Assembly (NCBI GenBank): GCA_001244265.2
Contig: LN717261.1
Coordinates: 3,177,591 to 3,241,590, forward strand
From: Microbotryum violaceum
Lineage: Eukaryota
Length of the DNA stretch: 64,000 nucleotides
Direction: 5' to 3'
This document shows positions 91 through 49,718 of this stretch, in pieces; the first letter of the stretch is position 1, and each line of letters starts with the position of its first letter. A program made the translations under genes and the position numbers. The notes below the pieces were generated by a model that ran no database searches, was not told the DNA's origin, and was given only the letters and a program-made list of their open reading frames with translations.

Positions 91-291
91 TGAAAGGCAC
101 GAGATTGCTCTCGAGCCCCACTGGTTCCGAGTCCAAACTAAAAGGATCAAATGGTGTAATTCGCAGGCGAAGAAAGACTACTAAATGGACTAAGGTCAAG
201 AGACGCGGTGGCGCCGCGCGCAAGGGCAAGCGTGAGGCCGCAGAGGTTGGCTCGAGGTCGTCGTGAGGTGTAAGCGGAGCGGCGCCTTACA
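91..291 (-). mobile_element. Solo LTR (~200 bp, family A)
   Basis: TG...CA termini on the minus strand; 5-bp TSD CTGGC at 86-90 and 292-296; homologous to 47194-47393 and 33863-34010. Confidence 0.9.
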
Positions 292-3900: not shown

Positions 3901-5093
3901 TTAAGCAGAGCAAACTCCAATACCAAAGGTATATCAAATGACACCTCGGCTGGCGCCTTGAGGATGGCGAATCGGCTGCGGCTTACTAGGAGACTCGGAG
4001 GATGGTCGCGGATGTTCGGACCCAAGGGCGGCTCGATGACCGAGTCATACTTCTCCCGCACGCCGTCCAGCTGCTCTGGCGCAAGGAATGGATTCTGAAG
4101 CCGGAGGCCAGGTGGACCAGGTGGACGGAGAAGATGCTTTACAAAGATCTGTTCCCTTCGCCTCAGGATTGCCAGGATTTGATGCTGCCGAAACCAGTCA
4201 GTCGCGGGCTGTCGCGGGCGCAGCGCTGACGCGATGTCAATTTTCGAGTCGACACCTGCTGGGTTTGGGTCTTGCGTACTGCAGCTGACTCCCAAGGGAA
4301 CGCGCTCATTTGAATGCAGGGTCCCACCGCACTTTCTTCCCAATCTAGCCGCAAAACAGCTCGATTTTCTAACATCCGAGACATGGTCCACCGCCAACAG
4401 AAGAAACACTATCTCAGCCGCCCCAGCACTGTACTGTGCCGTGGACCCTATGAAGAGCTTAAAGCCACTCACTCGGTCCTGTACACAGATGCTTATCAGT
4501 CAAAGACGAATGGACGTCGCTTCTGCCGTGTGCCATACTGCCCACTGTATCTCAGTAGATCTTCGGTTTTACTACTCAGTTTTGCATACCCAGAAATCCT
4601 ATACTACAGCCAGTTAAAAAAATATCCAACAGTACAGTGTACTATGTACGTGTCCACCGCATCAAGGAGGTTTCAGGAGTGCAAACTTTTTTGACCGGTC
4701 TTCCACCCTTGGTAAACGAAGCGAACCGTGCGCAATCCGACCCCTGCTCTTGAACCATTGGCAACCTCGGCAAGGAGTTGAGATCTTGACTCCGAAGTTA
4801 CCGAACCTACCACCGAGGTTGTAGAACCTGACACCGAAATTGGAACCTCATACTGAAGTTGGAGAACCTCGGCACAATCCGAAAAACCTGAGCACCAAGT
4901 TGCCACCTTGGGACCGAGTGAATGCACGGTGACCAACCTCACCTCAAGCGCCCACACCGTGGTTCGGCGCGCGCGCGCGAAGTTTTTCACGGTGTGGGAC
5001 CTCGAGGAGCGTCCATGACGGCGAACCTCCCGGCCAGGTGCGGCACCGGTCTAAACGGTTGCCTCGTTTTGGCCTTTCTTGCTATGTTGTGGG
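933..5093 (-). mobile_element. TIR DNA transposon derivative, CACTA/CMC (EnSpm/Plavaka)-like
   Basis: ~45-bp inverted repeat (CATAGCAAGAAAGGCCAAAACGAGG... at 933-976 vs 5043-5086); arrays of subterminal AACTTGG/CCAAGTT motifs at ~1030-1330 and ~4740-4920; internal transposase-like remnant. Confidence 0.6.
3131..4100 (-). pseudogene. C-terminal fragment of a CACTA/Plavaka-like transposase (BAH-like VRVGDFV...FAQVEAIF region)
   Basis: ORF 3131-3583(-) VRVGDFVVFG...VVFAQVEAIF...LLLVTW resembles the C-terminus of fungal CMC transposases; upstream frames are broken. Confidence 0.45.
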
Positions 5094-7427: not shown

Positions 7428-7550
7428 TGTAAGGGGATGCCTTACAGAACAGCCCTATAAGTAGTCTCTGAGTAGCTAGAACTGCCGAGTTCTAGTTACG
7501 ACTTGCTTTTAGCCTAGCGGTCAAGAACGACAGATTGTATTTTATGCACA
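7428..7550 (+). repeat. ~125-bp dispersed repeat (family B; possible short solo LTR or MITE)
   Basis: TGTAAGG...ATGCACA; inverted near-identical copy at 24830-24961; internal hairpins TGTAAGG/CCTTACA and CTAGAACT/AGTTCTAG; CCAG on both flanks. Confidence 0.7.
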
Positions 7551-8489
7551 CCAGTGGGAACCCGTTAAATTAACGGGAGGATGAAATTCAAAAAATAGCA
7601 GGATAATCGAACAGTCTACATGATCTCAGCGCAGAGGTTAAGAAAACACAATACGAAGTACAGCAAAGAAACAAAATCCATTCATCTTACATTCATCGCC
7701 GAAACAGCTTGCATGTCGCTTGTTGCCGGACGTGGCTTCAAACACTCGTGCGATGAGATCCGGACGGTTGCATGCTTTATCGGCCCCAGTGCAGCCTTGG
7801 TTTCCGGTGAGTCGGGGTCGTACGTCATCTTGATGAGCAGCGGAGGCTTCCCATCTTTGACAACGCACGCCATCGCATCCTGGTATCGCTGCGTGATGTC
7901 GCGATTTGGTTCGGGGTCAAGGCGTTGATGCCTTGGGTCGTGGTGAGGCGTAGGTTCTCTTGATGCAACCGGATGTGTAGAGTCGATCGGTCTCGACTTG
8001 GAGTATATCCATAAATCACAGACTCCAGGAAGGGACCGTGGGTGCAATGCGGGATTGAGAAGTACTCGTCGCCTTTGGCAAGTAGTGCGCAAAGAATGGT
8101 GAACGCGAGACTCGCCACCTCGACCCCTTTACTTGACCTTCGTCCTAGGTGTTCAAAAGTTCAATGTCAGTCTGTGCTTGCGCCTTAGACAGAATGGAAC
8201 ATCAGAGAAAGAGCTGAAGAAGCGTACGTTCGCCATCACCATCCTCTTCGTCCCCGTCCTCGCCGTCTTCATCCTCATCGTCGCGGTCTTCGTCCTCCTC
8301 TTCGTCTTCGTCATCCAGACCGAGACCGGCAACTACCTCGCGCAATTGGACACCATTGTCGATCTGCGATCTGCTCTCGGTTTCTGGCGATGGGCGGCCC
8401 GGCTTGGTGGAACCCGCAAAGAGGAATGTTGGGGTGGAAGCCATCTTCCCCTGCAGGAAATAGTAGTGGCTACCGGAGAGGCAACGCAG

Positions 8490-11336: not shown

Positions 11337-16006
<4,670 letters not shown>

Positions 16007-23843: not shown

Positions 23844-24829
23844 CTCGCGCGGCGCGTATTTCTTTTTTCTTTTTTCTGCGGCGCTCGTGTAAGCAACGGC
23901 GCCTCATATAGATTACCTTATTACCCTAACTAGTCAAAAAATAATATGTGAGTTAAGAAGTGTACCTAAAATCGCTATTACTGAGTCGGTTGCGGCCATC
24001 CGGGCCGCCCGTTGTGGATGTACCAGCATGCTGTTGTGTCTTCCGCACCTGTCTGTGGTCCAAGTTCCGATCAGAAGTCATGTACAAGCGCTGTAGTGAC
24101 TTTTGTATGTTCCGCGCCGTTCTAACGAAGCCACAGCGCTCCCAGTATTTTCCTTCTTTTTTTCGCTGACATAAAATAATGCTTCTACTCATATTGCATT
24201 TAATGAACCGCAAGCGCTGCATGATATTGCTTCTACAGCAGAGCTCCGCCTGACGCGCGAGGCTTAGGCTGGCGTCTGTCACGTGATGCGGTGCGCCGGC
24301 GGTGTCAGTCAGTGTCATTCCGGCAGTCGACCAGCGGCACTAGGAGCTGAACAACAAATCAAACCACGTAAATAATCCTGCGCCACTGCCTCGAACCCTT
24401 CCTTTCTCCCTCCCACTCTCATCCAATTTTAGTGACACTCATTCAAAAACAAACCCTCGCTACTATGCCCCGGTCCCAAGGGCGCGAGGGAGGGCCATCG
24501 CAACCTCGCCAAGTCTTGGGCGCGAGGGTAGTGCCGTACCATGGGAGGACCCCCGAAAGCCCGGCCAAAGGCGGCCCGCAAATTTGGACATTCTGGGGAC
24601 CGGAAAATCGGCTAGGCAGCCCGCAAATTTGGACATTCTTGGCTCAAAATGGGTCGAGGCTCACTTCATTTTTGGACATCTTCCTCCCTCCGGTCGAACT
24701 TTGAAGCGCAGACCAGGGTAGCGGGAGGCTAGATCGGCTAGAGGCGCAGGGCATAGCCGGCCCAGCGGCGCGCTGTTTGCGTTTGGAGCGCGTTAGTGTC
24801 TGCATTTTCTATACGGTATGCGCCTCTGA

Positions 24830-24961
24830 TGTGCATAAAATACAATCTGTCGTTCTTGACCGCTAGGCTAAAAGCAAGTCGTAACTAGAACTCGGCAGTT
24901 CTAGCTACTCAGAGGCTACTCAGAGGCTACTTATAGGGCTGTTCCTGTAAGGCATCCCCTT
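24830..24961 (-). repeat. Family-B repeat copy
   Basis: Reverse complement of 7428-7550 with an internal 11-bp duplication (CTCAGAGGCTA). Confidence 0.85.
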
Positions 24962-24984
24962 TTGCGATCATTTATCGCCGTTTT

Positions 24985-25300
24985 TTGATCGTCTCTCGCT
25001 CGGAACGCCGACTTGTCGAGCTACATCTCCTCTTCTTCCTTTCGATCTGGAAGCTCGCCGAGAAATACCTTTCTTTTCCTAGTCGGTCGATAGATTCACA
25101 GGGTTCGCCGGCGCCGATCCTCGTCAAATTTTTTGGAACCGATCACCGAAATGGCACTCGAAGAGCTCGGGCGTCAATTCAGGAGTCCAAGGCTCGCCTT
25201 GTGTCTCTATAAATCACCCAAGGGGGATTTGGCGGGAATGATTGATCCTGACTCAGGGTCAATGAGTCCTACACTACTGACCTAGCCAGTGTAGTTACTG
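24985..25300 (+). mobile_element. Old diverged 3' fragment of the same LINE family (ORF2 end plus 3' UTR)
   Basis: VSRSERRLVELHLLFF...SIQESKARLVSL* vs VSRSERRPVELRLLFF...SIQESKGRLVSL* in the young copies; homologous UTR hairpins. Confidence 0.85.
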
Positions 25301-25530
25301 GTGGGTGATGGGGATTGTGGCGCGTGGTGTCTTATACCATATGCTCTTGATCTTGTCCTCTCCGTCCTCGCTCGCTTCGTCTACTTCAACCCCGCCAATT
25401 TGTTTAACATTTTTTGCAAAGTGAAATCTAAACCTAATTCTCTAACCCCCTTCTTCTTCTTTTTTGATCTAGTTTTTGACCCAGACAAAAAAGATCAAAG
25501 AAAAACAGGCAAGCCGGAGGCAGAAGATTC

Positions 25531-25607
25531 TTTTTTTTTTTATCTAATAGATTTCATTAACAGCATATCTATATTAATGCCTAAAAATCCTCGGAAAAGA
25601 CGGAGGG
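25531..25607 (-). mobile_element. Distal 3' UTR plus A11 tail of LINE copy 2, displaced by the insertion of copy 1
   Basis: Reverse complement of 30696-30772; rejoins with 30773 onward (CGGAGGG/GAATGCAG) to rebuild the complete minus-strand 3' UTR. Confidence 0.9.
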
Positions 25608-25630
25608 GGAGAAAACTGAGGGCGACACGC

Positions 25631-27048
25631 ATGAACAACCACAACAACAACGACACCAGCAATGCCACCCCCGGTGCTATAGCACCTAATCGCCCTCCCG
25701 ACCCCACCGGCGTCACCGTCACCGCCCAAACCAAGTCGTACTCCGCGGCCGTCTCCGCCCGTTCCCATGCGAAGACCAACGCCACCCCCGCCACCGCCAC
25801 GACTGTTGCCTCCCACCCGATGATTCACAACATCGCCAACTGTGTAATCATCAAAACCCCTCCCGCGACCACCTCCGAGAAAGTGCTCTCAGCACTCGAT
25901 CACCACTACCCGGCCCTTGCAGGCGCCATGCCCTGCGTCATCAAGGGACAACACGGCATCCGATTCCCTAAGGACGCCGACATCGCCGACCTGGTCGCGA
26001 ATGGTCTGACCGTTGGAAAGACCTTGTGCCAAGTCGAGAAACTATTCTCAGCCACTACTGGTCTAATTCAATGCACCCTTTCTGGCTTCTTCTCCGATGT
26101 AGAGGGCCTCCGCCTCTTTGATGAGCAGATTGCCGAGTACGGCAAGGTCCTCCTTCGCCGCACTCATTACATTGGCAAGACTAGGCACATCTCTGGGGTG
26201 TATGACTTTGTTCTTGCCCTCGGGACCCAAACAAATTGCCTCCTGCATCCATCTCCATTGAACGCGACGGCGTGACCGAGCGTATCCCGCTCAGGATCAC
26301 CGGTGGCATGCGCCACTGTGTTTTCTGCCGTTCCGCGGCCCATGTCCGTAAGGACTGCCCCGTCGCCCCGGCGTGCAAGTCGTGCGCAAGCACCTCGCAC
26401 GCCAGCCAGCATTGCCCGGGCCGCCGCTTCGCGTCGAGCCCCCAGGGCACTCCCGAGTCACGTGCCGCGCAAGCCTCCACCATGACCAAAGCCCCCCGGC
26501 CTCCAAGTCGATCCCTGCGCCACCCGCGCCCGACCGCTCGTTGAAGACCAAAAAACGTCGAGTGAACCCAGATCAGGACCTGGCTGCCCAGCCCCAAGAT
26601 CCATCTAACAGGGCTCAGCCTGAACCCCTGTCGGAGACTCCTCGCCCCGGTTTCTCCTTCAATTTCCCTCCCAACTCCGCCCCCTGCCCGCCTCCAACCA
26701 GTCAACTGCCCCTCCCCTCGTTGAAAAATCCTCCGAGTCCCCCAGCTCGGAGACGACCCCTTCGCCCCCAAGCCCTGCTCCGGCCACACCAACGCCAAAG
26801 ACGATCATCACTCGTTCCCAGTCAATTGCTGCCCTCTCCACACCAGCCACTCGTGAAGACCCGCCCACTCCGCCTGCCCCCGAAGCCTCCGAGCCGAACC
26901 CCCGGCCCTCCTCGCCGTTGCCCTCAGCGATCAAAGCCCGACCCGATGCCACCGACGCCGACGAAGATGCCGAAGAAGAAGGCAAAGACCAAGAAGCACC
27001 CCCGAGGACGTGGACGACGTTATGGAGCAAGACGATGAGCACAATTAA
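25631..27048 (+). CDS. LINE ORF1 (gag-like, CCHC zinc knuckles), with apparent single-base frameshifts
   Basis: MNNHNNND...; CVFCRSAAHVRKDC and CKSCASTSHASQHC; Pro/Ser-rich tail ending EDVDDVMEQDDEHN* (TAA 27046-27048) and overlapping the ORF2 ATG; shifts at ~26220, ~26495, ~26685, ~27000. Confidence 0.8.
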
Positions 27049-30000
27049 GATCCCAAACGTGTCTTTTGTTGCTGCCAACGTGCAGTCAATCAATGAAGAT
27101 CGTAAGCGTGCCTCTCTTTTCTCCAATCTCCGCTCCCATAACGCCGATGTCTTTCTCCTGAGCGAAACGGGCCGACCTTCCCCGGAAAGGGTTGCCCAGT
27201 GGACTCAGGAGTGCCAAGACTTAAAGCTCTCCGCTCTTTTCACTCCTCTCAACAACACCGCTATACTCTGGAAGAGCGACTCCGTGGTCATCACTATTGA
27301 TCCCGAGTCACCTCCCAACACTCTTCGTGCCTCTTTCGCTTTCCCCGACCGAGTCACCGACGCCACCTTTCGCGTGGGAGACTCAAAAATCCGGGTTGTA
27401 TCAATATACGCGCCTTCCTCCGACAAGCCAGACAAAAAGCGTTTCCTCTCACATCTCAGCACAGCCCTCCGACAAGTCGTGCGCGACGAGCCCTCGCCGC
27501 CTGCGCTCTTAGTCGGGGGGGACTGGAATTGTGTTGAGTCCCAACCCCTCGATTCGGAGAACCAAAACGGGACGAATTATGGGGGCCAGGAGATGCGCGA
27601 CCTTGCCACGGCCAACAACCTCTTTGATGTCTATCGGCTTCACCATCCCAAAGGACGAGCCACGACGAATCGCTCAGCGCCCGGCACGTGCCGTCGCCTT
27701 GACCGCATCTATGTCTCGCCTGATTGGGTCGACCTCTTCCACGACCACAAAATCTGGGCTCCTGTCCTCAAATCGACGCACTCGATGGTGGCGGCGCGGT
27801 TCCAAGTGCCGGGCGCAATCGACATCGGTCCGGGTAAATTCAAGTTGGGTTTGCACGTGATCGAGGGCGACGCGACCTGCGAATACCTCACTTCCACTGT
27901 CCAGGCCCTCTACAATGAAGCCCTCCTCCAGACGCCCGACGACCCATCAGCAGCTTGGACGTCCACCAAACAACACTTGCTGCCCGAGCTTCAGGCTCTG
28001 GCTCGCACACTTGCCCGCTTCCGACGTGGAGGATCGGAGGAGGCGAAGGCAGATCACTCGCGCTACGGCGCGGCGCTGCGGTCCCGCATTGATCCTTCCC
28101 TCGCGGGCCCATCTTCCATCTTCATCCGCCTACGCAAAGTGCGCGCATCCGACCTCATCCCTTCCCTCTCGGTCGACAATGTCGTCCACTCCGACCCCGA
28201 CTCGATGCTTGGAGCCGCTAGCAAGTACTTCGAAGGGGTCTACGAGGATCGCGCTATCGATGACGACGCCTTGGAGAAGATTATCGACGGTCTCGCCTCG
28301 ACTCGCCTATCCCCTGCCGATTCGGACAAGCTCGAAGGAGCGTACCCCCTAGAGGAGATAACAAAGGCACAAGAGGCGTGTAAGTCGAACTCCTCGCCTG
28401 GACCCGACGGTCTCCCGGTCGAGTTTTACCGCGCAACGTGGACAGCCACAGGCCCCATCCTCCGCGACGTCATCAACTCGATCCCCACCGACGACGCCAG
28501 TTCTCGAACGTCGGCCCGCCACACTGCCCACATCCACCTCATCCACAAGCGCGGCGAGAGGGATCGGCTGGTGAACAAACGCCCCATATCACTCATCAAC
28601 GCTGATGAACGCATCATCTCCCAAGCCCACAACCAGCGCCTTGCCCCTCTGCTCGAGACCCTGATCGGCTCGACCCAGCGCGGTTTCATTCCGAACCGCT
28701 GGATTGGCACGAACATCGCCGAGGTGCAGTGTCTCATGGATCCTGGGCTCCCGGGTTCAGAGCCGGTGTCCGGTCTGCTCGCAGTGATGGACTTCGAGAA
28801 GGCTTACGACCGTCTTTCCCACACCTACATCGATGCAGTCCTCAGCGCCGTTGGCCTTGGCCCGAAAGCCTGCCAATGGTACCGAGCGACCTATACAAAC
28901 CAATCCGCCTCAATCTACCTCAACGGATGGCTCTCGGCCGCGTTCGATATCCTCTCGGGAGTTCGACAAGGCGACCCGCTGGCTCCGTCGCTCTTCGTTC
29001 TCGCAATTGAGGGCTTCGCCGTACAGTTGCGGTCACAAGTCAAGGGCATCGCGAGCCCGGGACTCCCAACCATACGAGAACTTCTCTTTGCCGACGATGC
29101 CTGCTGTGCTCTCCACGACACCTCGGACCTCGACCACCTCAATCGGGCGATCGAGCTGTACGAGCGGGCAAGTGCCAGCAAGCTCAGCAACGCCAAATCT
29201 TTCCTCTACCCCTCGGGTCATTCAGGGACCGTCCGATCCCTTCACACCTCGGGTCCTGGCGTCTCAGCGACTCGCAGTTTCGTTACCTGGGAGTGCAGGT
29301 TGGGGTGGACATCGCCGAGGATGCGGGCTGGGAGGAGGTCAAGTCCGCGACCGTCGCCCGGATACGATCCATCCCAATGTACGACCTTCCGTACGCAGCG
29401 AAATGTTCGATAATCAATATCTACTGCTACACGAAGATTCTCTACCATAATCGTTTCATCCCAGCTTCCAAGAGCGTCGTCAAGGAGATCGAGGACGCGG
29501 TCATGATCGCTATCCACGGTCGAGCCTCGGACGGATCTCAGAAACCCCGAAGGTCTCTCGGCTGCGCCTCTGCACCCCTCTCGACCACGGCGGCTTTGGC
29601 TTGATTGACTTACCTCGGCGCCTCGCGGTCGATCACGCCAAGTGGGTCTTTCATCTTCGGGACCCGGACGGCTGCTTCATTCGGCACCTCTTCGACATCC
29701 GCACTCGCCTTCAGGCGGCGAACGAACGCACCCCCTTTACCTTGCCCAAATCAGGCCCCAACCCACATCGTCGCTCGTGGGTCTGGATCTGGTGGGCCTA
29801 CTTTTGCCACCCTCCTCCACAGTGGGAACGCGCAGTGAGGAAGACGAAGGCCCTGCTCCCTCCACGATGGATCCGCTTTTTCGAAGCCTGGGATTTGGTG
29901 ACAACGCTGAACCCCCCGAACTTTCCAAGAGCCCGAATCTGGAGCGGTGGGCAACACACGTCCTCTACTTCCCAGCAGGCCACGGAATCCGACTCTCGGT

Positions 30001-30603
30001 GAACCCGACGCTTTTCCGAGGACCCGATGGCGAGGTGATGACTCCGTCTTCGTTTGTGAACGCGTCCAAACGCCACCAAGCCTTCCTCTACCCTCCTATC
30101 CTCCCTCTCGGTCATCAGAGGGTTTTCTGTCTCCCGAGCAACGCTGGAATGCCTGGTGGAAGGCGCTACGCAAGATTCGCAGGGTTCATTCGGACGCCGA
30201 AGACACGGCCCACCTCCTCTCCCTAGGTTCACTTCATCCAGGTAGCCAAATCGCTTCTCCGAATAGCCGTTCTCTCCACAATCGATCTACCGCATGTGTC
30301 ATGTGCCTGTCGGAGGCTCCGGAGACCCTGGCACACCTTGCGGTCGGTTGCCCGTTTGCCCGCCGCCTCTGGTCTGCGCTCACTCCTATCCCACACCCCG
30401 ACTTTGTTCAGTTCGTGTGCCCGGTCGTTTCTCGCTCGGAACGCCGACCCGTCGAGCTGCGTCTACTCTTCTTCCACGCGATCTGGAAGCTCTCTCGTCG
30501 CCGTCGATTTTCGTCGGATCCTCTGGAGCCGATCGCCGAAACGGCATTTGAGGAGCTCCGCGCGTCCATCCAGGAGTCCAAGGGACGACTGGTTTCGCTG
30601 TAA
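27035..30603 (+). CDS. LINE ORF2: AP endonuclease, reverse transcriptase and C-terminal zinc finger, with apparent frameshifts
   Basis: AANVQS, LLSET, VSIYAP, GGDWN, RLDRIY, STH (APE); SPGPDG, RPISLIN, DFEKAYD, GVRQGDPLAP, FADD, FRYLG (RT); CVMC...HLAVGC; shifts at ~29210, ~29545, ~29915, ~30135. Confidence 0.9.
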
Positions 30604-30772
30604 CCGCCTAAGGGGGTTTTAGTGGGTATGGTTGATTTTGTTCCAAGGTCAACGAGTCCCACACTACTGGCCTCGCCAGTGTGCTTAACTGCATTCCCTC
30701 CGTCTTTTCCGAGGATTTTTAGGCATTAATATAGATATGCTGTTAATGAAATCTATTAGATAAAAAAAAAAA

Positions 30773-33406
30773 GAATGCAGTTAAGCACACTGGCGAGGCC
30801 AGTAGTGTGGGACTCGTTGACCTTGGAACAAAATCAACCATACCCACTAAAACCCCTTAGGCGGTTACAGCGAAACCAGTCGTCCCTTGGACTCCTGGAT
30901 GGACGCGCGGAGCTCCTCAAATGCCGTTTCGGCGATCGGCTCCAGAGGATCCGACGAAAATCGACGGCGACGAGAGAGCTTCCAGATCGCGTGGAAGAAG
31001 AGTAGACGCAGCTCGACGGGTCGGCGTTCCGAGCGAGAAACGACCGGGCACACGAACTGAACAAAGTCGGGGTGTGGGATAGGAGTGAGCGCAGACCAGA
31101 GGCGGCGGGCAAACGGGCAACCGACCGCAAGGTGTGCCAGGGTCTCCGGAGCCTCCGACAGGCACATGACACATGCGGTAGATCGATTGTGGAGAGAACG
31201 GCTATTTGGAGAAGCGATTTGGCTACCTGGATGAAGTGAACCTAGGGAGAGGAGGTGGGCCGTGTCTTCGGCGTCCGAATGAACCCTGCGAATCTTGCAT
31301 AGCGCCTTCCACCAGGCATTCCAGCGTTGCTCGGGAGACAGAAAACCCTCTGATGACCGAGAGGGAGGATAGGAGGGTAGAGGAAGGCTTGGTGGCGTTT
31401 GGACGCGTTCACAAACGAAGACGGAGTCATCACCTCGCCATCGGGTCCTCGGAAAAGCGTCGGGTTCACCGAGAGTCGGATTCCGTGGCCTGCTGGGAAG
31501 TAGAGGACGTGTGTTGCCCACCGCTCCAGATTCGGGCTCTTGGAAAGTTCGGGGGGTTCAGCGTTGTCACCAAATCCCAGGCTTCGAAAAAGCGGATCCA
31601 TCGTGGAGGGAGCAGGGCCTTCGTCTTCCTCACTGCGCGTTCCCACTGTGGAGGAGGGTGGCAAAAGTAGGCCCACCAGATCCAGACCCACGAGCGACGA
31701 TGTGGGTTGGGGCCTGATTTGGGCAAGGTAAAGGGGGTGCGTTCGTTCGCCGCCTGAAGGCGAGTGCGGATGTCGAAGAGGTGCCGAATGAAGCAGCCGT
31801 CCGGGTCCCGAAGATGAAAGACCCACTTGGCGTGATCGACCGCGAGGCGCCGAGGTAAGTCAATCAAGCCAAAGCCGCCGTGGTCGAGAGGGGTGCAGAG
31901 GCGCAGCCGAGAGACCTTCGGGGTTTCTGAGATCCGTCCGAGGCTCGACCGTGGATAGCGATCATGACCGCGTCCTCGATCTCCTTGACGACGCTCTTGG
32001 AAGCTGGGATGAAACGATTATGGTAGAGAATCTTCGTGTAGCAGTAGATATTGATTATCGAACATTTCGCTGCGTACGGAAGGTCGTACATTGGGATGGA
32101 TCGTATCCGGGCGACGGTCGCGGACTTGACCTCCTCCCAGCCCGCATCCTCGGCGATGTCCACCCCAACCTGCACTCCCAGGTAACGAAACTGCGAGTCG
32201 CTGAGACGCCAGGACCCGAGGTGTGAAGGGATCGGACGGTCCCTGAATGACCCGAGGGGGTAGAGGAAAGATTTGGCGTTGCTGAGCTTGCTGGCACTTG
32301 CCCGCTCGTACAGCTCGATCGCCCGATTGAGGTGGTCGAGGTCCGAGGTGTCGTGGAGAGCACAGCAGGCATCGTCGGCAAAGAGAAGTTCTCGTATGGT
32401 TGGGAGTCCCGGGCTCGCGATGCCCTTGACTTGTGACCGCAACTGTACGGCGAAGCCCTCAATTGCGAGAACGAAGAGCGACGGAGCCAGCGGGTCGCCT
32501 TGTCGAACTCCCGAGAGGATATCGAACGCGGCCGAGAGCCATCCGTTGAGGTAGATTGAGGCGGATTGGTTTGTATAGGTCGCTCGGTACCATTGGCAGG
32601 CTTTCGGGCCAAGGCCAACGGCGCTGAGGACTGCATCGATGTAGGTGTGGGAAAGACGGTCGTAAGCCTTCTCGAAGTCCATCACTGCGAGCAGACCGGA
32701 CACCGGCTCTGAACCCGGGAGCCCAGGATCCATGAGACACTGCACCTCGGCGATGTTCGTGCCAATCCAGCGGTTCGGAATGAAACCGCGCTGGGTCGAG
32801 CCGATCAGGGTCTCGAGCAGAGGGGCAAGGCGCTGGTTGTGGGCTTGGGAGATGATGCGTTCATCAGCGTTGATGAGTGATATGGGGCGTTTGTTCACCA
32901 GCCGATCCCTCTCGCCGCGCTTGTGGATGAGGTGGATGTGGGCAGTGTGGCGGGCCGACGTTCGAGAACTGGCGTCGTCGGTGGGGATCGAGTTGATGAC
33001 GTCGCGGAGGATGGGGCCTGTGGCTGTCCACGTTGCGCGGTAAAACTCGACCGGGAGACCGTCGGGTCCAGGCGAGGAGTTCGACTTACACGCCTCTTGT
33101 GCCTTTGTTATCTCCTCTAGGGGGTACGCTCCTTCGAGCTTGTCCGAATCGGCAGGGGATAGGCGAGTCGAGGCGAGACCGTCGATAATCTTCTCCAAGG
33201 CGTCGTCATCGATAGCGCGATCCTCGTAGACCCCTTCGAAGTACTTGCTAGCGGCTCCAAGCATCGAGTCGGGGTCGGAGTGGACGACATTGTCGACCGA
33301 GAGGGAAGGGATGAGGTCGGATGCGCGCACTTTGCGTAGGCGGATGAAGATGGAAGATGGGCCCGCGAGGGAAGGATCAATGCGGGACCGCAGCGCCGCG
33401 CCGTAG
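30773..33406 (-). mobile_element. 5'-truncated LINE copy 2 (RT to 3' UTR), antisense to copy 1
   Basis: Near-identical reverse complement of 28063-30696; TSD AGATTC at 25525-25530 and 33405-33410 brackets copy 2 together with nested copy 1. Confidence 0.95.
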
Positions 33407-33410
33407 ATTC

Positions 33411-33540
33411 AGCTGCAAAACCATGCTTAACTGCATTTCCTTCGGCTTTTCCAGAGATTTCTAGGTATTAGGATATAGCGCGCGGCTGAGAACCTTATTT
33501 TGGGGTGCATTCTTTTATGTAGTAGATTATAGTATCATTT
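33411..33540. mobile_element. Diverged LINE 3'-UTR remnants (plus-strand UTR followed by an antisense tail)
   Basis: TGCTTAACTGCATTTCCTTCGGCTTTTCCAGAGATTTCTAGGTATTA resembles 30682-30730; TGCATTCTTTTATGTAGTAGATT (33506-33528) resembles the antisense tail junction. Confidence 0.7.
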
Positions 33541-33862
33541 TAATTCATCAAATGATAGATGATAAACAAAGATGAGATCCTATTCGAGTCCATTTCAATT
33601 TGAAAAGGCTCGTTGGCGGTCGCGCTGGTGGCGCTCTTAACCTCTTGGTGCGCCCGCGCAACCTTTCCTGCCGGCGCGCGGCGGGAATGCAGTCTGCGCG
33701 TAGCGCAGAAAATTTCTGGGCGTTGTACAGCTCGCAGAGTAGTTTTGAGAAATTATCCAACACTAGGTCATATTTGGACTTTTTCAGTCAGAATCCGGGA
33801 AAATGTTGGACATTTTGCCTCGAAAAAGGCCGTTTTGAGAGGCCGCCTATGGCTGGGCTTTC

Positions 33863-34010
33863 GCCTCACGCTTGCCCTCGCGCGCGGCGCCGCCGCGTCT
33901 CTTGACCTTAGTCCTTTGAGTAGTCTTTCTTCACCTGCGAATTACACCGTTTGATCCTTCCAGTTTGGACTCGGAACCAGTGAGGCTCGAGAGCAATCTC
34001 GTGCCTTGCA
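33863..34010 (+). mobile_element. 5'-truncated family-A LTR
   Basis: Matches the 3' ~150 bp of 47194-47393 and ends in CA. Confidence 0.85.
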
Positions 34011-34149
34011 CCGCTTCGTCCCCGACCCATTGAGTCAATTCGTTCTTGACAGCTTTGCAATTGGACCGTCGCTTTGTGTAATGCGCGAAGTTTGACTACG
34101 CAGTTGCACAAATGCTGGAAATCTAGATATGTCATGGGACATCAGGGTT

Positions 34150-40800: not shown

Positions 40801-41300
40801 GTGTATGCGCGCCTGCCTCTTGTGGCGATGAGGCGCCGGCGCTTGTGCATTGTGCCTTGGAGACTCTGACGAGTTTCGGTCGCCTCATACCCCTTCTTCA
40901 CTCGCTCAGCCTCCCCCTTGTACCCCGCCCCATACATACATCCAGCCCGCCTGTCTATCCGCCAGCACATCCGCCCCGTAGCCCGACCGTTCCTTCTACA
41001 ACGACACAGCTTCGACTCGTCACGATCATCTACACGCTCTACACCCACGTACCCTTCGTTGTACACCTTCCACCTCGTCTCGAGTCAGCCTTCGCACCCC
41101 GCGCATCGGCACCCGCACGAGCCTCTCGCAGCACGGATTCTGAGTGTACGCACATAGACGCACCCCCTTGGGTTGCCCCTCTCGACGGAGGCCGCGTAGT
41201 AGGTGGGCATCGCGTACTCATCACGACCGGAATTGTATCCCCACAGGTTACCTACTTCCACCCACCCCTGTAATCGACTGTCGATCTTGGACAGTGCTTG

Positions 41301-43948
41301 ATGCATTACCTGTCGGCGGCTCTCGGGAGTCCATTCGACACGGTCGCCGCTGCCACCGCCATCTGCTCGGACCGCCTGGCCTTTGAGGACGAGGTTGCGT
41401 CGTCTTGTTCGTCTTCGTCTTCGTCGTCTTCGGCTTCGTCGTCGAGTTCAGGCTCGCCAGCATCTTCCATGTCCCCGACCTTCTCCCACACGTCGTGCAG
41501 GGCCCAGGGCGCTTATGAGGATGAGCCCATGATCTCGCCCGCGGCGGCCGCACCCAGGGTGTCTCACCTCCCGAATCAACGCCCCCGGCGCGTGTCGCCG
41601 AAAGAGGCCCAGCCGCGCACCGCCGCCAGCGCTGCTGCCGCCCACGCCTCAGCTACCGGGCGCCGCGCCTCGACCGCCGCCATCGACTTCGACATTGACA
41701 GCAACGACGAGGACGATGATTTCTTCGGCACAACAAACCAACCGCCCGTCGCATCGACCTCGACTGGGCCTTCGCCTTCCTCTTCTTCCTCGTCGCCGAC
41801 ATCTTCTTCGTTCAACACGGGGAGGTCGTCCTCGCCGGCTTCGAGACCGAGCTCGAGCTCGCCCCCGGTCCACGAGCCGATTCTGCACCCCGAGCAGCTT
41901 CTCCAACCGCTCACACCTCCGCCCAACTCGTTCGCATCAGCTCAGGCCGCCATGGCGGCACAAAATTCGTCGCACTCACAGAATCTGATAGGCCACATGA
42001 TCGACAACTCGTCAAAGGGGTATCCGTCTCAGCTCGAGTTCATCTCGATTCTCGGCCTCGGCGCGTATGGCGTCGTCTACCTCGCTCGGGATGTCTTGGC
42101 TCAGCCGTCTGCATTCCCCTCTTCGAGAGCACATCCAGGACTTGGGAACCAGCCTTTGTACGCCGTCAAGTGCCTCAATAAACTCGGCCTCGATGAGCGC
42201 CAGCTCAAATTCCAGCGACGAGAGATTTTGCTGCATTCGCTCGCCTCGCCGCACGGGAACGTCGTCACGCTACACAATTACATCGTCGAAGAGAACTGCA
42301 TCTACGTCGTTCTGCAATTCTGCGAAGAGGGCGACCTTTTTGGGATGATCACGGAGCGACAGCGATACCTTGGCGACGACGAGCTCATCCGCAGCGTCTT
42401 CCTTCAAATCGTCGACGCCGTCGAATTCTGCCACCAAAACAGCATCTACCACCGCGATCTCAAGCCCGAGAACATCCTGTGTCTCGATGATGGGAAGAAG
42501 GTGGTACTTGCAGACTTTGGCTTGGCGACGCACGAAAAGACATCGGGCGACTTCGGCTGCGGCAGCACCTTTTACCTGAGTCCTGGTTAGTTTTTACATC
42601 CGCCTCCTGGAGGAAGTGTATTCCGTTCTAGTCAACTGACCCGGCTTGGCTTCGTCCCCTCTCCCCATGCTTCACAGAATGCCAAGGCGGTCTCTTCCAG
42701 CGACTGACATCGTACTCGACCCCCCACAATGACATCTGGTCACTGGGTGTCATCCTCGTCAACCTCACCTGCGGGCGCAACCCGTGGAAGCAGGCCTGCC
42801 CCTCGGATGAGACCTTCTGCGCCTACCTCGGCAATCCTGACTTCCTTCGCTCGATCTTGCCCATCTCGGAGCACACAAACCGCATCCTCAAGCGCATCTT
42901 TGCGTTAAACCCCAAGGCTCGCATCAACCTTAGGGATTTGCGCCGCGAGATTCTCAGCGTCAAGACATTTGTCATGACCGAAGAGGAGTTGCGCCACGCA
43001 ACCAAAGCGACCAAGGAGGCCGCGAGGGCATTCGCGCAAGGAATCGTCGACGAGGTGCTGGAGGAGGGGGCCGTGGAGGCTGAATATTGCGACGACCTCA
43101 TGTCGCAGGACCAAAGCATGGAGGAGGCCGTCAACCAGGGCGAAGACCTGCTGCTGCTGCAGTCGGCGATGGGTGAGTATAACGGAGACCGAGGCGACAT
43201 AGAATCAGAGGGCCTTTTACTCACTCGGAGCCGCTCGCCTTGCCTAAAAGATGTACTGCCAGCGACCCCAACCCAGCCCTTCCGCGCTGCACCCCTCATC
43301 ACCCCGCCTGCTACGCCCCGACGAGGCCATCGCCCTGCCGACATCACCCCCGTCTCGCACCAGGATGCGCTTAGAGCCTCGTACTCGCGAGGTTCCAGTG
43401 GAAGCGAAGAATCGTCCGACAGTTCCAATTCGGACGAGGAGGCGACTCCTCACCTCCGCCGCCGCCGCCGTCGCGATATCTTCCTTACCCCGCCATCGCA
43501 CTCTCGCAGCGTATTTGAATCGGTCGGACCGAGCCTCAACGACCCTCGCCCTCCTTCTCCTGTCACTCCGACGACTCACCGCCGCACGCGAGCCTCCAGG
43601 AACGCCTCTCCGCGCTCAGCGGCCGCTCGTCTCGCCAAAGTCACGGGCAGCGGACAGCGACGGCAGCGCAAGACCTCGTTCGATTCTTCGTCCTCTTCTT
43701 CGGGCGCGTCGGCTTCGCAGCCGCCGACGCCAACCGGACCCCCGGTCTACTCGCAAGCGCAACACTATGGCCGCGATGGGCAATACAGCAGCTTCGAAAG
43801 CAGCTACGTGCACCCCGCTGGCGTCGACGCCGCCAAGCAGCACCGCGAACTGCCGCCCGATGTCCTTACCGCCTACTACCCCGTATTCTCTGCTGGTGGG
43901 TCCTCATATCTCTCTCGCACATGCGACGAGTCCACGAGCCAGCACTGA
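41301..43948 (+). CDS. ran1: Ran1/Pat1 (Sks1/Vhs1)-family Ser/Thr protein kinase
   Basis: GLGAYGVVY, YAVKCL, REILLH, HRDLKPENIL, DFGLAT...DFGCGSTFYLSPEC, NDIWSLGVILVNLTCGRNPWKQA; GT-AG intron 42586-42677 restores the frame. Confidence 0.92.
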
Positions 43949-47193: not shown

Positions 47194-47393
47194 TGTAAGG
47201 CGCCGCTCCGCTTACGCCTCACGACGACCTCGAGCCAACCTCTGCGGCCTCACGCTTGCCCTCGCGCGCGGCGCCGCCGTGTCTCTTGACCTCAGTCCTT
47301 TTAGTAGTCTTTCTTCGCCTGCGAATACACCGCTTGATCCTTTCTGTTTGGATTCGGAATCAGTGAGGCTCGAGAGCATTCTCGTGCCTTTCA
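47194..47393 (+). mobile_element. Solo LTR (family A)
   Basis: TGTAAGG...CTTTCA; TSD CTCCT at 47189-47193 and 47394-47398. Confidence 0.92.
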
Positions 47394-49718
47394 CTCCTCT
47401 CCCCGCTTCGGCACCTGCACTCCTTTCTTCTCCAACTACACACTCACAACCCTCTCGCCCCCGACTCTTACGTGATCATCAACCGAGCTCTATTACGTGA
47501 TCCTCAGCCTCAACACTATTACGTGATCCTCGTGCCTCGCCTTCTCAAGCTCGCCACCTCATCCCCGACTCCTCTGGTCTAGTTCCCCTTTCCGTAGCTT
47601 ACTTCTCTCTTTCCTTTCTGCAACTCGAATCTCGTCAAAGGTCACATCCTTGCACTCGTCCCTCTTCCACGTCTCTCTTGAGAAGTCCCTAGAACCTCTC
47701 TCGACTTGTCCCTCGTCCCTCGCCCCCCGTCTCGAGCCCCTTCGTCCGGCTCATCCCTCCTATCTTTGTCCTTCGTGATAGCCGCAGGCCACCTACAAAA
47801 CCGTGGCGCCGAAAATGTAACCGTGCACTGCCACGTGGGAAGCGGGTTCGGTGTGATGACATCTTCTCTACGCGACGATCACAATACTATCACATGGGCC
47901 TCATCGGAGCCAACTCGCAAATGATCAATTTCGGTCTCGGAGTTGAGGCCCACTGCAGGGACACAAGAAGTGGTCCGCTTGATTGATCGCTGAGGGACAT
48001 TTCGGTGAGTCTACGGATTCGAAATCCAAGGGCCTAGAACTGGGCTACAATTCAAACGTTGTACTCTCTAAGTAATCAATTCCGACGACCCCAGAAATTA
48101 TGGTGTGTTCGTTTGGCTCACGTGCTCGTCGCCGAAGCTGAGGAGCGCGAAGCGTCCGAGGTTCCTCCGCAGTGGAACCAGTAGTCTGGCGCTGATCCTT
48201 CTTTTACACGGTCTAGAAAGCCCTGGGATAGGTCACAAATCTGGGCTTGAAGGAGTGCCATAAGTTCTGCCATGAATTATTCGGGTCCTGCTAATAATTA
48301 GCAATATGGAGGCGCCAGCTTTGCGGACCCAGACGCCGAAAGGAAGAGTTGGGCCGGACATGCGCGGAAGTTACTCTACAATCTGAGCATCAGCGCCTTT
48401 CTATCTCAGGAGCTTCAAACTATCCTCAATGGTCCTCTTCTTTTGATGGACTTCTGGGGCCGGGCGCGATGCTGCGACACCGCTCTCGGAGGCCACGGCC
48501 GCGAGGTCACATATAGGAGCTCTGATTCGGAGGTCCGCTCGCATATGTGGCTCTCCCCATGACATTCTGTCTCGTTAAAAGATCCAACCAATTAAAACTG
48601 ACGTTTCCATGATCGCAAGATCGCTCGCTGGGCTTGCTTAATTGGGGCGGACCGGTCTAAGCCCCTGAGACACTGCGTCGGCCTCTGTCCGCTCGAACGT
48701 CAGGTTTTGCACTTCAGACGCCGAGGGCGAGTGTGGACCCGTGCGCCTAGAACTTCGAGCAAGCACTAGCTGGGTCCCCTATCCCGCGTCCCCACACGCA
48801 ACTACCCTCCCTCCTCACGGCACGCAAGGTAAGCTCATGCTGCACTAAGCTCAACTAAGCCCTCCCTCTGATGGGCGTTGAGCTTAATGCTGCACTACCT
48901 TCCTCTTTGGGTCGCAGGCGCGCGAGACCGGCGGTGGGCTTTCCGGCAGCTCCGATTGAGCATGCCGTCAGCAGGTGGGATGGGCGGCCACGCTCTACAG
49001 TATGGTACAGCACTATGGTAGTGAAGGATGCACTGAGGCATACAGCTGAAACGGAATCTCGAGGCAACTTCCATGGCAGGCCGAAAATAAAGAACTTCTG
49101 GCCCCTGGGCCCCTCTCACTGCACTGTGGGTTCTCGAACTAGATGACACCGAGCCAATTCGCCCCGGCCCAGATATCGCTAGTTCGAGGTGTGCATGTGC
49201 ATATGTCATCGTCCCGGACGATACTAGGCTCTGTCAATTTGGATTTTTCTGGCGATGGGGCCATCTACACGGCCATCATGCACGACAGCAGCGCGTATTC
49301 TGGAAGTGGCTTTGTAAAGGCAAAACTTCCAAGTCAATATAAATGAAGCTAACCGGACACGCGCGGCCGCCGGCCTGCGGTGAACGCACCGGCGCCGCGC
49401 GCCCTCGATCACTGGGTCCAGCCGACTAGAACCGACCAGAACGACTTCTACCCGGACCCCATCCCCGACCGACGACCTCTGGTGCCTCGTCCCCTTCACG
49501 TCACCTTGACGACTCGGCCAGCTCCATTGCCCGTCTCTGTGACTCACGATCGTCCAGTCTACCGTGTTTTGAAGTAAACGAGCTTGCCCGGCGTCCGAGA
49601 CGTTCTCTTGGTCGCTCCCTCTCATTTGGGACGTCACGCCGCTCTAAGGCGCCAGCTGCCTCGACCGCTCTTCGCTCGCTCGTCAAGTGCTCATATCACA
49701 TCCCGGCCGGTGACCGCC

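What the first reader, a model, noticed from the sequence alone, without database searches (positions are those of the whole stretch)
24985..33540. Self-targeting LINE that inserts antisense into its own 3' UTR at ATTC, building an alternating nest
Seen: removing copy 1 (25608-30772,+) rejoins CGGAGGG/GAATGCAG into the intact 3' UTR of copy 2 (-). Removing copy 2 (TSD AGATTC at 25525-25530 and 33405-33410) leaves a site ~20 nt upstream of the homologous motif in an older plus-strand 3'-UTR remnant. A third, decayed tail junction TGCATTC/TTTTATGTAGTAGATT sits at 33506-33528. At all three junctions the A-tail is followed by GAAT and the newcomer is antisense to the resident UTR. Known: Tx1-clade APE LINEs can be site-specific for multicopy targets. 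Inference: this family uses its own 3' UTR as a safe-harbour target, nicking after ATTC, so each insertion supplies a new target in the opposite orientation. I do not know of a described fungal LINE that does this.
Basis: partly seen in the sequence, partly recalled or inferred. Interest (0 to 1): 0.9.

Follow-up and report, generated by a model that had tools for sequence, protein, structure and literature searches.

The report
Nested antisense LINE copies in Microbotryum
A young, intact L1-like retrotransposon of an anther-smut fungus has repeatedly inserted, always after the bases ATTC and always in the opposite orientation, into or right beside the tail end of older copies of itself; it is a real nest and a likely, still unproven, variant of the self-nesting already known for other LINEs.

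Summary
The nest is real and its anatomy is as described. Copy 1 (25608-30772, +) splits the 3' UTR of a near-identical, 5'-truncated copy 2 (-). Copy 2 has the AGATTC duplication. A third, ~30-nt tail fragment (33513-42, -) sits inside the tail of an old diverged (+) copy.

All 3 junctions show poly-A next to GAAT (nick after ATTC), and all 3 newcomers are antisense. Two of three lie inside family 3' UTR sequence, at two different positions that share TGCATTC. The third lies in a 252-bp single-copy insert, 14 nt from UTR sequence.

The host is Microbotryum. The element is L1-superfamily (APE-RT-CCHC) and multicopy in four short-read runs. Its apparent frameshifts are homopolymer errors of the assembly.

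Genome-wide self-targeting could not be tested, because no genome is held and the read tool showed only part of its tables. Other copies do have unrelated flanks, so targeting is not obligate.

Self-nesting LINEs are already described: Cnl1 in the fungus Cryptococcus and Zepp in green algae, both in tandem orientation. LINEs that target other transposons are also known (Tx1).

Verdict: confirmed observation, partly supported interpretation. At best it is a new variant (antisense, interstitial) of a known kind. Interest is moderate.

The parts
24989..25292 (+). Old diverged copy ('copy 3'): end of ORF2 and first part of the 3' UTR. It is 76-87% identical to copy 1 positions 4818-5075.
25293..25530 (.). 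Main part of a 252-bp insert of unknown origin inside the old UTR (it continues at 33411-33424). It is single copy by depth in 4 of 4 runs and holds copy 2's target site.
   Evidence: (bin 25321-25527: depth 35/38/3.9/48 against hundreds to thousands for the LINE; run X5 loose end at 25292 runs straight on into UTR)
25525..25530 (+). Left copy of the AGATTC target-site duplication of copy 2. Its 3' end is the priming end.
25531..25607 (-). Split-off 3' end of copy 2: T12 (poly-A) plus the last 65 nt of the UTR.
   Evidence: (I4)
25608..30772 (+). Copy 1, carrying the full coding sequence. ORF1 is 25631-27038 (CCHC knuckles) and ORF2 is 27035-30603 (APE, RT, CCHC), with an ATGA stop/start overlap. 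The 3' UTR is 30604-30761 and A11 is 30762-30772.
30690..30696 (+). TGCATTC in copy 1's own intact UTR. It is the only TGCATTC in the element and corresponds to the site used in copy 2.
30773..33404 (-). Body of copy 2, 5'-truncated inside the RT-coding part (it aligns from copy 1 position 28065). It begins at the + strand GAATGCAG, which is the rest of its split UTR.
33405..33410 (+). Right copy of the AGATTC duplication.
33425..33512 (+). Continuation of the old copy's 3' UTR (motif decayed to CTGCATTT), up to the GTGCATTC used by the third insertion.
   Evidence: (D2)
33513..33542 (-). 'Copy 4': a 30-nt, heavily 5'-truncated tail fragment (T4 plus 26 nt), flanked by ATTC at 33509-12 and 33543-46.
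33547..33575 (+). Last part of the old copy's tail, with a decayed poly-A (ATAAACAAA).

Best explanation
This is a genuine nest made by successive target-primed reverse transcription events of one L1-superfamily LINE family of Microbotryum. The family is young, coding-intact and multicopy.

In each event the strand that primes cDNA synthesis ends in ...ATTC-3' (TGCATTC twice, AGATTC once). The element's endonuclease, or annealing at the nick, therefore prefers ATTC.

The only ATTC in the young 3' UTR lies on the sense strand. An insertion there is for that reason necessarily antisense.

On top of the short motif there is probably a local attraction to resident 3'-UTR DNA of the family, that is, a preferential but not obligate self-targeting. 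This would explain why three insertions fell within about 180 bp of one another, in or beside family UTRs.

Shown here: the anatomy, the order of events (old copy, then the 252-bp insert and copy 4, then copy 2, then copy 1), ATTC at all junctions, the youth and coding integrity of the family, and the existence of copies elsewhere.

Inferred: that the UTR itself is recognised. Possible means are DNA binding by the RNP; read-through RNA ending in GAAUGCAG that can pair with the ...CTGCATTC primer; or an R-loop that exposes the sense strand.
For: Structure, duplications and poly-A tracts.

ATTC at 3 of 3 junctions, against 6.7 ATTC/GAAT per kb. TGCATTC occurs at 2 of 3 junctions, yet only once in the 5165-bp element, which holds 23 ATTC/GAAT sites, and 13 times in the 64-kb window.

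2 of 3 sites lie inside family UTR and 1 of 3 lies 14 nt from it.

Intact family: eight 1-base additions, all in G/C runs, are listed for the short-read contigs; seven are carried in 4 of 4 runs and the one at 30132 in 3 of 4, run X5's contig lacking it. They open ORF1 (480 codons) and ORF2 (1347 codons). Domains are Exo_endo_phos, RVT_1 and zf-RVT. The best solved relative is human L1 ORF2p, E = 1.9e-36.

Multicopy: LINE contigs have depths of hundreds to thousands, against 35/38/3.9/48 for the single-copy bin. Copies 1 and 2 differ by 2 substitutions in 2.7 kb.

No RNA gene underlies the target: Rfam gave only hairpin artefacts and no tRNA was found.

Precedent that flanking target sequence in the RNA can help targeting: passages in PMC4494074 and PMC7265360.
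Against: There are only three events, all at one locus that was picked because it looked odd.

The three sites are at different positions, and one is not in LINE sequence.

Non-nest copies exist. Unrelated 5' flanks are seen in run X8 (25614) and run X5 (25625), and a variant tail in run X8 is followed by CCCATGAACG. P0047/P0055 carry an N-terminal extension unrelated to the antisense tail.

0 of 13 ORF1 gene models carry the extension (MPKNPRKRRRG...) that a canonical nest would encode. This test has low power.

Older UTR variants lack ATTC at the canonical place.

The read tables were cut (175 further loose ends and 1141 further pieces were not shown). Nest-type junctions elsewhere would map silently on the laid stretch. 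The fraction of copies in nests is therefore unknown in either direction.
Confidence: 0.55

Rival explanations
1. Short-motif preference only. The endonuclease nicks after ATTC (preferring TGCATTC) anywhere in the genome. The nest then reflects a tolerated or hot region where insertions persist, for example TE-rich, low-recombination DNA. The hits in family UTRs are coincidence plus selection of an odd-looking locus.
For: The three sites differ and share only ATTC or TGCATTC. One site is in non-LINE DNA. Other copies have unrelated flanks. The window is rich in repeats: a Copia element at 11.6-15.7 kb and small repeats. TE dimers formed through insertion-site preference are common in Drosophila (PMC5932611, abstract and sections 7 and 9 read).
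Against: Three family insertions lie within about 180 bp. By my own rough estimate (not a tool result), with tens of copies in a genome of a few tens of Mb this is expected far less than once, even if only a tenth of the genome is permissive. Copy 1 hit the single TGCATTC among the roughly dozen ATTC/GAAT sites that copy 2 offers; that figure is my estimate from the 23 counted in the whole 5165-bp element.
Confidence: 0.3
2. Strong form of the first reader's idea: an obligate site-specific LINE whose safe-harbour target is one defined site in its own 3' UTR, so that essentially all copies sit in alternating nests.
For: Copy 1 lies exactly at CTGCATTC|CCTCC in copy 2's UTR. All newcomers are antisense.
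Against: Only 1 of 3 events uses that site. At least three other 5' contexts and one 3' context are unrelated to the UTR. A chimeric gene model in M. silenes-dioicae, P0051, joins the closest ORF2 relative (93% identity) to Copia domains.
Confidence: 0.1
3. Assembly artefact: a fold-back or chimeric long read creating a false 2.6-kb inverted repeat.
For: The arms are essentially identical, and the assembly has many homopolymer errors. No listed contig spans the junctions (tables cut).
Against: A fold-back gives a plain palindrome. Here the missing 77 nt of copy 2's tail sits 5.2 kb away, exactly at copy 1's 5' end. Copy 2 also has a poly-A tract and a 6-bp duplication at its two ends, and the arms differ by 2 substitutions.
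Confidence: 0.03

Closest known systems
Cnl1, the LINE of Cryptococcus neoformans/deneoformans
   Same: It is a LINE of a basidiomycete fungus, described as inserting preferentially within itself and forming nested arrays with many 5'-truncated copies (PMC9942834, passages read).
   Different: Cnl1 nests in tandem orientation and sits in subtelomeric regions. Here 3 of 3 insertions are antisense, the locus lies among genes, and the window has no telomere repeats. No Cryptococcus protein appeared among the 49 and 51 ORF2 hits, so the two are not close relatives.
Zepp / Zepp-like L1 elements of green algae
   Same: [quoted passage not shown]
   Different: Zepp forms tandem arrays, with one cluster per chromosome (putative centromeres). 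The original paper was not held, so its target details were not seen.
Tx1-clade LINEs that target other transposons (Tx1 into Tx1D; Tx1-Mar into Mariner-N4_AMi; Tx1-8_Crp and Tx1-4_AMi into LTR elements)
   Same: These are APE-type LINEs that use a multicopy transposon as their target (PMC4494074, passages read).
   Different: Their targets are other families, at defined sites. Here the target is the element's own UTR region, at variable positions. Clade membership was not tested, and that paper describes Tx1 as an animal clade.
Ordinary L1-type short-motif nicking (human L1 endonuclease)
   Same: An APE endonuclease with a short preferred nick motif and variable duplications. The best solved relative of ORF2 is human L1 ORF2p.
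   Different: The primer end here is ATTC, which cannot pair with poly-A. The human L1 TTTT/AA motif is recalled from memory, not taken from a call.

Membership tests
L1-superfamily APE-type LINE | ORF2 with an N-terminal APE endonuclease, a reverse transcriptase and a C-terminal CCHC motif | tested here: met
   Exo_endo_phos 1.6e-10, RVT_1 1.9e-18 and zf-RVT 8.2e-05, the last below its curated cut-off. Human L1 ORF2p is the best PDB hit, 1.9e-36.
L1-superfamily APE-type LINE | Poly-A tail, variable 5' truncation and short target-site duplications | tested here: met
   A11, A12 and A4 tails. Copies of 5165 nt, about 2.7 kb and 30 nt. Duplications of 0-1, 6 and 4 bp.
Tx1 clade | Placement of the RT/APE domains inside the Tx1 clade in a tree with named references | not tested
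Strictly site-specific LINEs (R1, R2, Tx1, Keno type) | Nearly all copies at the same nucleotide of one target sequence | tested here: not met
   Three events at three different positions. Other copies have unrelated flanks.
Self-nesting LINEs (Cnl1, Zepp) | Preferential insertion into existing copies of the same family | tested here: inconclusive
   Locally, 2 of 3 events lie inside the family UTR and 1 of 3 lies 14 nt from it. The genome-wide rate is not measurable: no genome is held and the read tables were cut.
Self-nesting LINEs (Cnl1, Zepp) | Tandem (same-orientation) arrays at telomeres or centromeres | tested here: not met
   3 of 3 insertions are antisense. The window has no telomere repeat and holds genes such as a kinase.

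The most novel reading that the evidence does not exclude
The family homes to the 3'-UTR DNA of its own resident copies and always enters antisense. The reason would be that the sense strand of the resident UTR is exposed or recognised, for instance through an R-loop with LINE RNA or through read-through RNA ending in GAAUGCAG that pairs with the CTGCATTC primer. Each nest then becomes a perfect kilobase-scale inverted repeat that could feed hairpin RNA into silencing. The element would thus have a built-in, self-limiting safe harbour, which has not been described for fungal LINEs.
Probability: 0.2. Interest if true: 0.7.

Novelty: new variant of a known kind. Interest (0 to 1): 0.45.

Why it matters
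If the bias holds genome-wide, this would be a LINE that limits damage to its host by landing in its own tail, as Cnl1 and Zepp do, but in the opposite orientation. Every nest would then be a long perfect hairpin rather than a tandem array.

This bears on three questions: how target choice arises in APE-type LINEs beyond the nick motif, how inverted repeats and possible silencing triggers are born, and how repeats build up in Microbotryum genomes.

If the bias does not hold, the locus is simply a clear example of nested insertion by an active LINE with an unusual ATTC nick preference.

Tried and rejected

2. Reads: read laying could be used once and I laid only 24700-30900. The empty site for copy 2 (33411 onward) was therefore not covered. 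A single-copy contig of run X3 follows 25250-25530 and then runs on for 61 letters unlike the stretch. That would fit an allele without copy 2, but the letters were not shown, so I make no claim. Tables 7 and 8 were cut, and no junction-spanning contig was listed.

3. Metagenome scans: a 27-base pattern from the LINE found nothing. A profile scan kept 80 loci (of 438 relatives found), all only 24-32% identical and of no use for this family.

4. Earlier scan notes: five look-ups gave nothing relevant. The single hit was an unrelated bacterial locus sharing 2 of 67 words.

5. Clade naming: two protein searches and the Atlas returned no named L1, Tx1 or Tad1 reference.

6. Hidden RNA-gene target: Rfam and tRNA scans were negative. 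The miRNA-like Rfam hits at 30639-30831 are below the gathering scores and are the hairpin itself.

7. I first read the 252-bp insert as flanked by a roughly 12-bp duplication. I rejected this after the run X5 loose end showed that both segments are consecutive in the canonical older UTR.

8. A single-event origin (twin priming or template switch) was considered and rejected, because each copy has its own poly-A tract and its own junction features.

9. Literature: four full-text searches listed nothing on target choice of Microbotryum LINEs, and word finds in two Microbotryum papers turned up no passage on it. The searches were not exhaustive and supplements are closed.
Full report
**What is there**

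Copy 1 is 25608-30772 on the + strand and ends in A11. It is flanked on the left by the reverse complement of the last 77 nt of the same element (T12 plus 65 nt, 25531-25607). On the right it is followed by the reverse complement of the rest of that element (30773-33404).

These two pieces together are copy 2. It lies on the - strand, is truncated at its 5' end inside the RT-coding part, and is bounded by AGATTC at 25525-30 and 33405-10.

Copies 1 and 2 differ by two substitutions and two homopolymer indels in 2.7 kb. Rejoining copy 1's flanks restores the UTR with one surplus G/C. That means a 0-1 bp duplication or a run-length error.

An assembly fold-back cannot produce this pattern. The missing tail of copy 2 lies 5.2 kb away, exactly at copy 1's 5' end, and copy 2 has its own poly-A tract and duplication.

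**The older layer**

An older (+) copy, 76-87% identical, supplies 24989-25292 and 33425 onward.

Between these two parts lies a 252-bp stretch (25293-25530 plus 33411-24). It is single copy by depth in 4 of 4 short-read runs: 35, 38, 3.9 and 48, against hundreds to thousands for LINE contigs. Other copies of the older subfamily lack it, as the run X5 loose end at 25292 shows. Copy 2's target is inside this insert, 14 nt from where UTR sequence resumes.

I re-read the third junction. Removing 33513-33546 lets the old UTR align with copy 1's UTR right down to a decayed poly-A. 'Copy 4' is therefore a 30-nt antisense tail fragment inserted inside the old tail after GTGCATTC, with ATTC on both sides.

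**Tally of the three events**

- ATTC at the priming end: 3 of 3.
- Antisense to the resident element: 3 of 3.
- Inside family 3' UTR sequence: 2 of 3, at two different positions that share TGCATTC.
- Adjacent to UTR sequence: 1 of 3.

ATTC/GAAT occurs 6.7 times per kb in the window. Copy 1 holds 23 such sites but only one TGCATTC. TGCATTC occurs 13 times in the 64-kb window, against an expectation of 8.5. The young UTR has a single ATTC, on the sense strand, so antisense entry follows automatically.

**What the element is**

ORF2 carries Exo_endo_phos, RVT_1 and a weak zf-RVT match. Its best solved relative is human L1 ORF2p, with E = 1.9e-36.

43 of 49 protein hits are gene models of Microbotryum intermedium, M. 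silenes-dioicae or M. saponariae, at 53-88% identity. The host is therefore an anther-smut fungus.

The window's frameshifts are assembly errors. Short-read contigs carry one extra base at eight G/C runs, at seven of them in all four runs and at 30132 in three of four. With these bases ORF1 (480 codons) and ORF2 (1347 codons) are open. ORF1's stop and ORF2's start overlap as ATGA.

The depth ratios suggest roughly ten to forty copies. This is a rough figure, because contig depth is not a copy number. The family is young, intact and probably active.

**Is it self-targeting?**

The decisive census could not be run. No genome is held. The read tool allowed one call with truncated tables. The metagenome scans found nothing close.

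In favour is the fine-scale clustering. Three family insertions lie within about 180 bp, in or beside family UTRs. By my own rough estimate this is far below one expected case per genome, even if only a tenth of the genome is permissive.

Against an obligate rule, several copies lie elsewhere:
- Contigs of runs X8 and X5 show near-full-length copies with unrelated 5' flanks (25614, 25625).
- A variant tail in run X8 is followed by CCCATGAACG.
- Two M. silenes-dioicae ORF1 models share an upstream extension unrelated to the antisense tail.
- 0 of 13 ORF1 models carry the extension that a canonical nest would encode. This test has low power.
- One gene model fuses the closest ORF2 relative to Copia domains.

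These counter-examples are themselves biased. Nest-type junctions elsewhere would map silently on the laid stretch.

**Mechanism**

I favour an ATTC-preferring nick (TGCATTC best) combined with a local attraction to resident 3'-UTR DNA. I put this at 0.55.

One concrete possibility is read-through RNA. Such RNA from a nested or ATTC-flanked master would end in GAAUGCAG, which is complementary to the ...CTGCATTC primer. Passages in PMC4494074 and PMC7265360 describe how target sequence in the RNA can sharpen targeting in other LINEs. This is inference, not shown here.

The main rival is motif preference alone plus a tolerated region (0.3). The obligate safe-harbour form gets 0.1, and artefact 0.03.

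**Comparison with known systems**

[quoted passage not shown] - Tx1 families target other transposons (PMC4494074).
- TE dimers formed through site preference are common in Drosophila (PMC5932611, abstract and two sections read).

What would be new here is the antisense orientation, the interstitial location (no telomere repeat) and the resulting 2.6-kb perfect hairpin.

Four full-text searches listed nothing on target choice of Microbotryum LINEs, and word finds in two Microbotryum papers turned up no passage on it. Supplements were closed, and the original Zepp papers were not held.

**Verdict**

If the bias holds genome-wide, this is a new variant of a known kind. Interest is moderate.

Noticed in passing
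window 26221, 26491, 26679, 26998, 29208, 29544, 29911, 30132: The assembly lacks one base in G/C homopolymer runs relative to the short-read contigs (4 of 4 runs at seven sites, 3 of 4 at 30132, where run X5's contig lacks it). Coding frames elsewhere in this assembly are probably broken in the same way.
   Followed up: yes
window 24817-24961; also 7431-7557 (-): A ~145-bp repeat just left of the old LINE copy. Its depth is about 90 times single copy in run X1, with several different flanks in the contigs. A second copy in the window is 89% identical. It may be a MITE, a SINE or an LTR fragment.
   Followed up: partly
window 33863-34011; 91-238 (-); 47247-47394 (+): Another ~150-bp dispersed repeat, 92-93% identical between its copies.
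   Followed up: no
window 25293-25530 + 33411-33424: A 252-bp single-copy insert of unknown origin sits inside the old LINE UTR, without a clear duplication. This is a fourth insertion event at the same spot.
   Followed up: partly
window 28063-33406: The nest forms a 2.6-kb near-perfect inverted repeat with a 76-nt loop. Rfam miRNA-precursor models hit its centre below their gathering scores. If transcribed, it would give a long hairpin RNA.
   Followed up: partly
window 25250-25530 (run X3, record 9): A contig at single-copy depth follows the window up to 25530 and then continues for 61 letters unlike the laid stretch. This may be an allele without copy 2. The letters were not shown.
   Followed up: no
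window 11593-15743: A Copia-type LTR retrotransposon (gag, integrase, RVT_2) with a 959-codon open frame.
   Followed up: partly
window 41274-43948: A protein kinase domain is split over two 438-codon frames. The cause could be an intron or another assembly frameshift.
   Followed up: no
window 27035-27038: The ORF1 stop and the ORF2 start overlap as ATGA, which suggests termination-reinitiation.
   Followed up: partly
P0051 (M. silenes-dioicae gene model): A chimeric 2087-aa model joins the closest ORF2 relative (93% identity over 42% of the query) to Copia integrase and RVT_2 domains. A young LINE copy therefore lies next to or inside a Copia element there.
   Followed up: no
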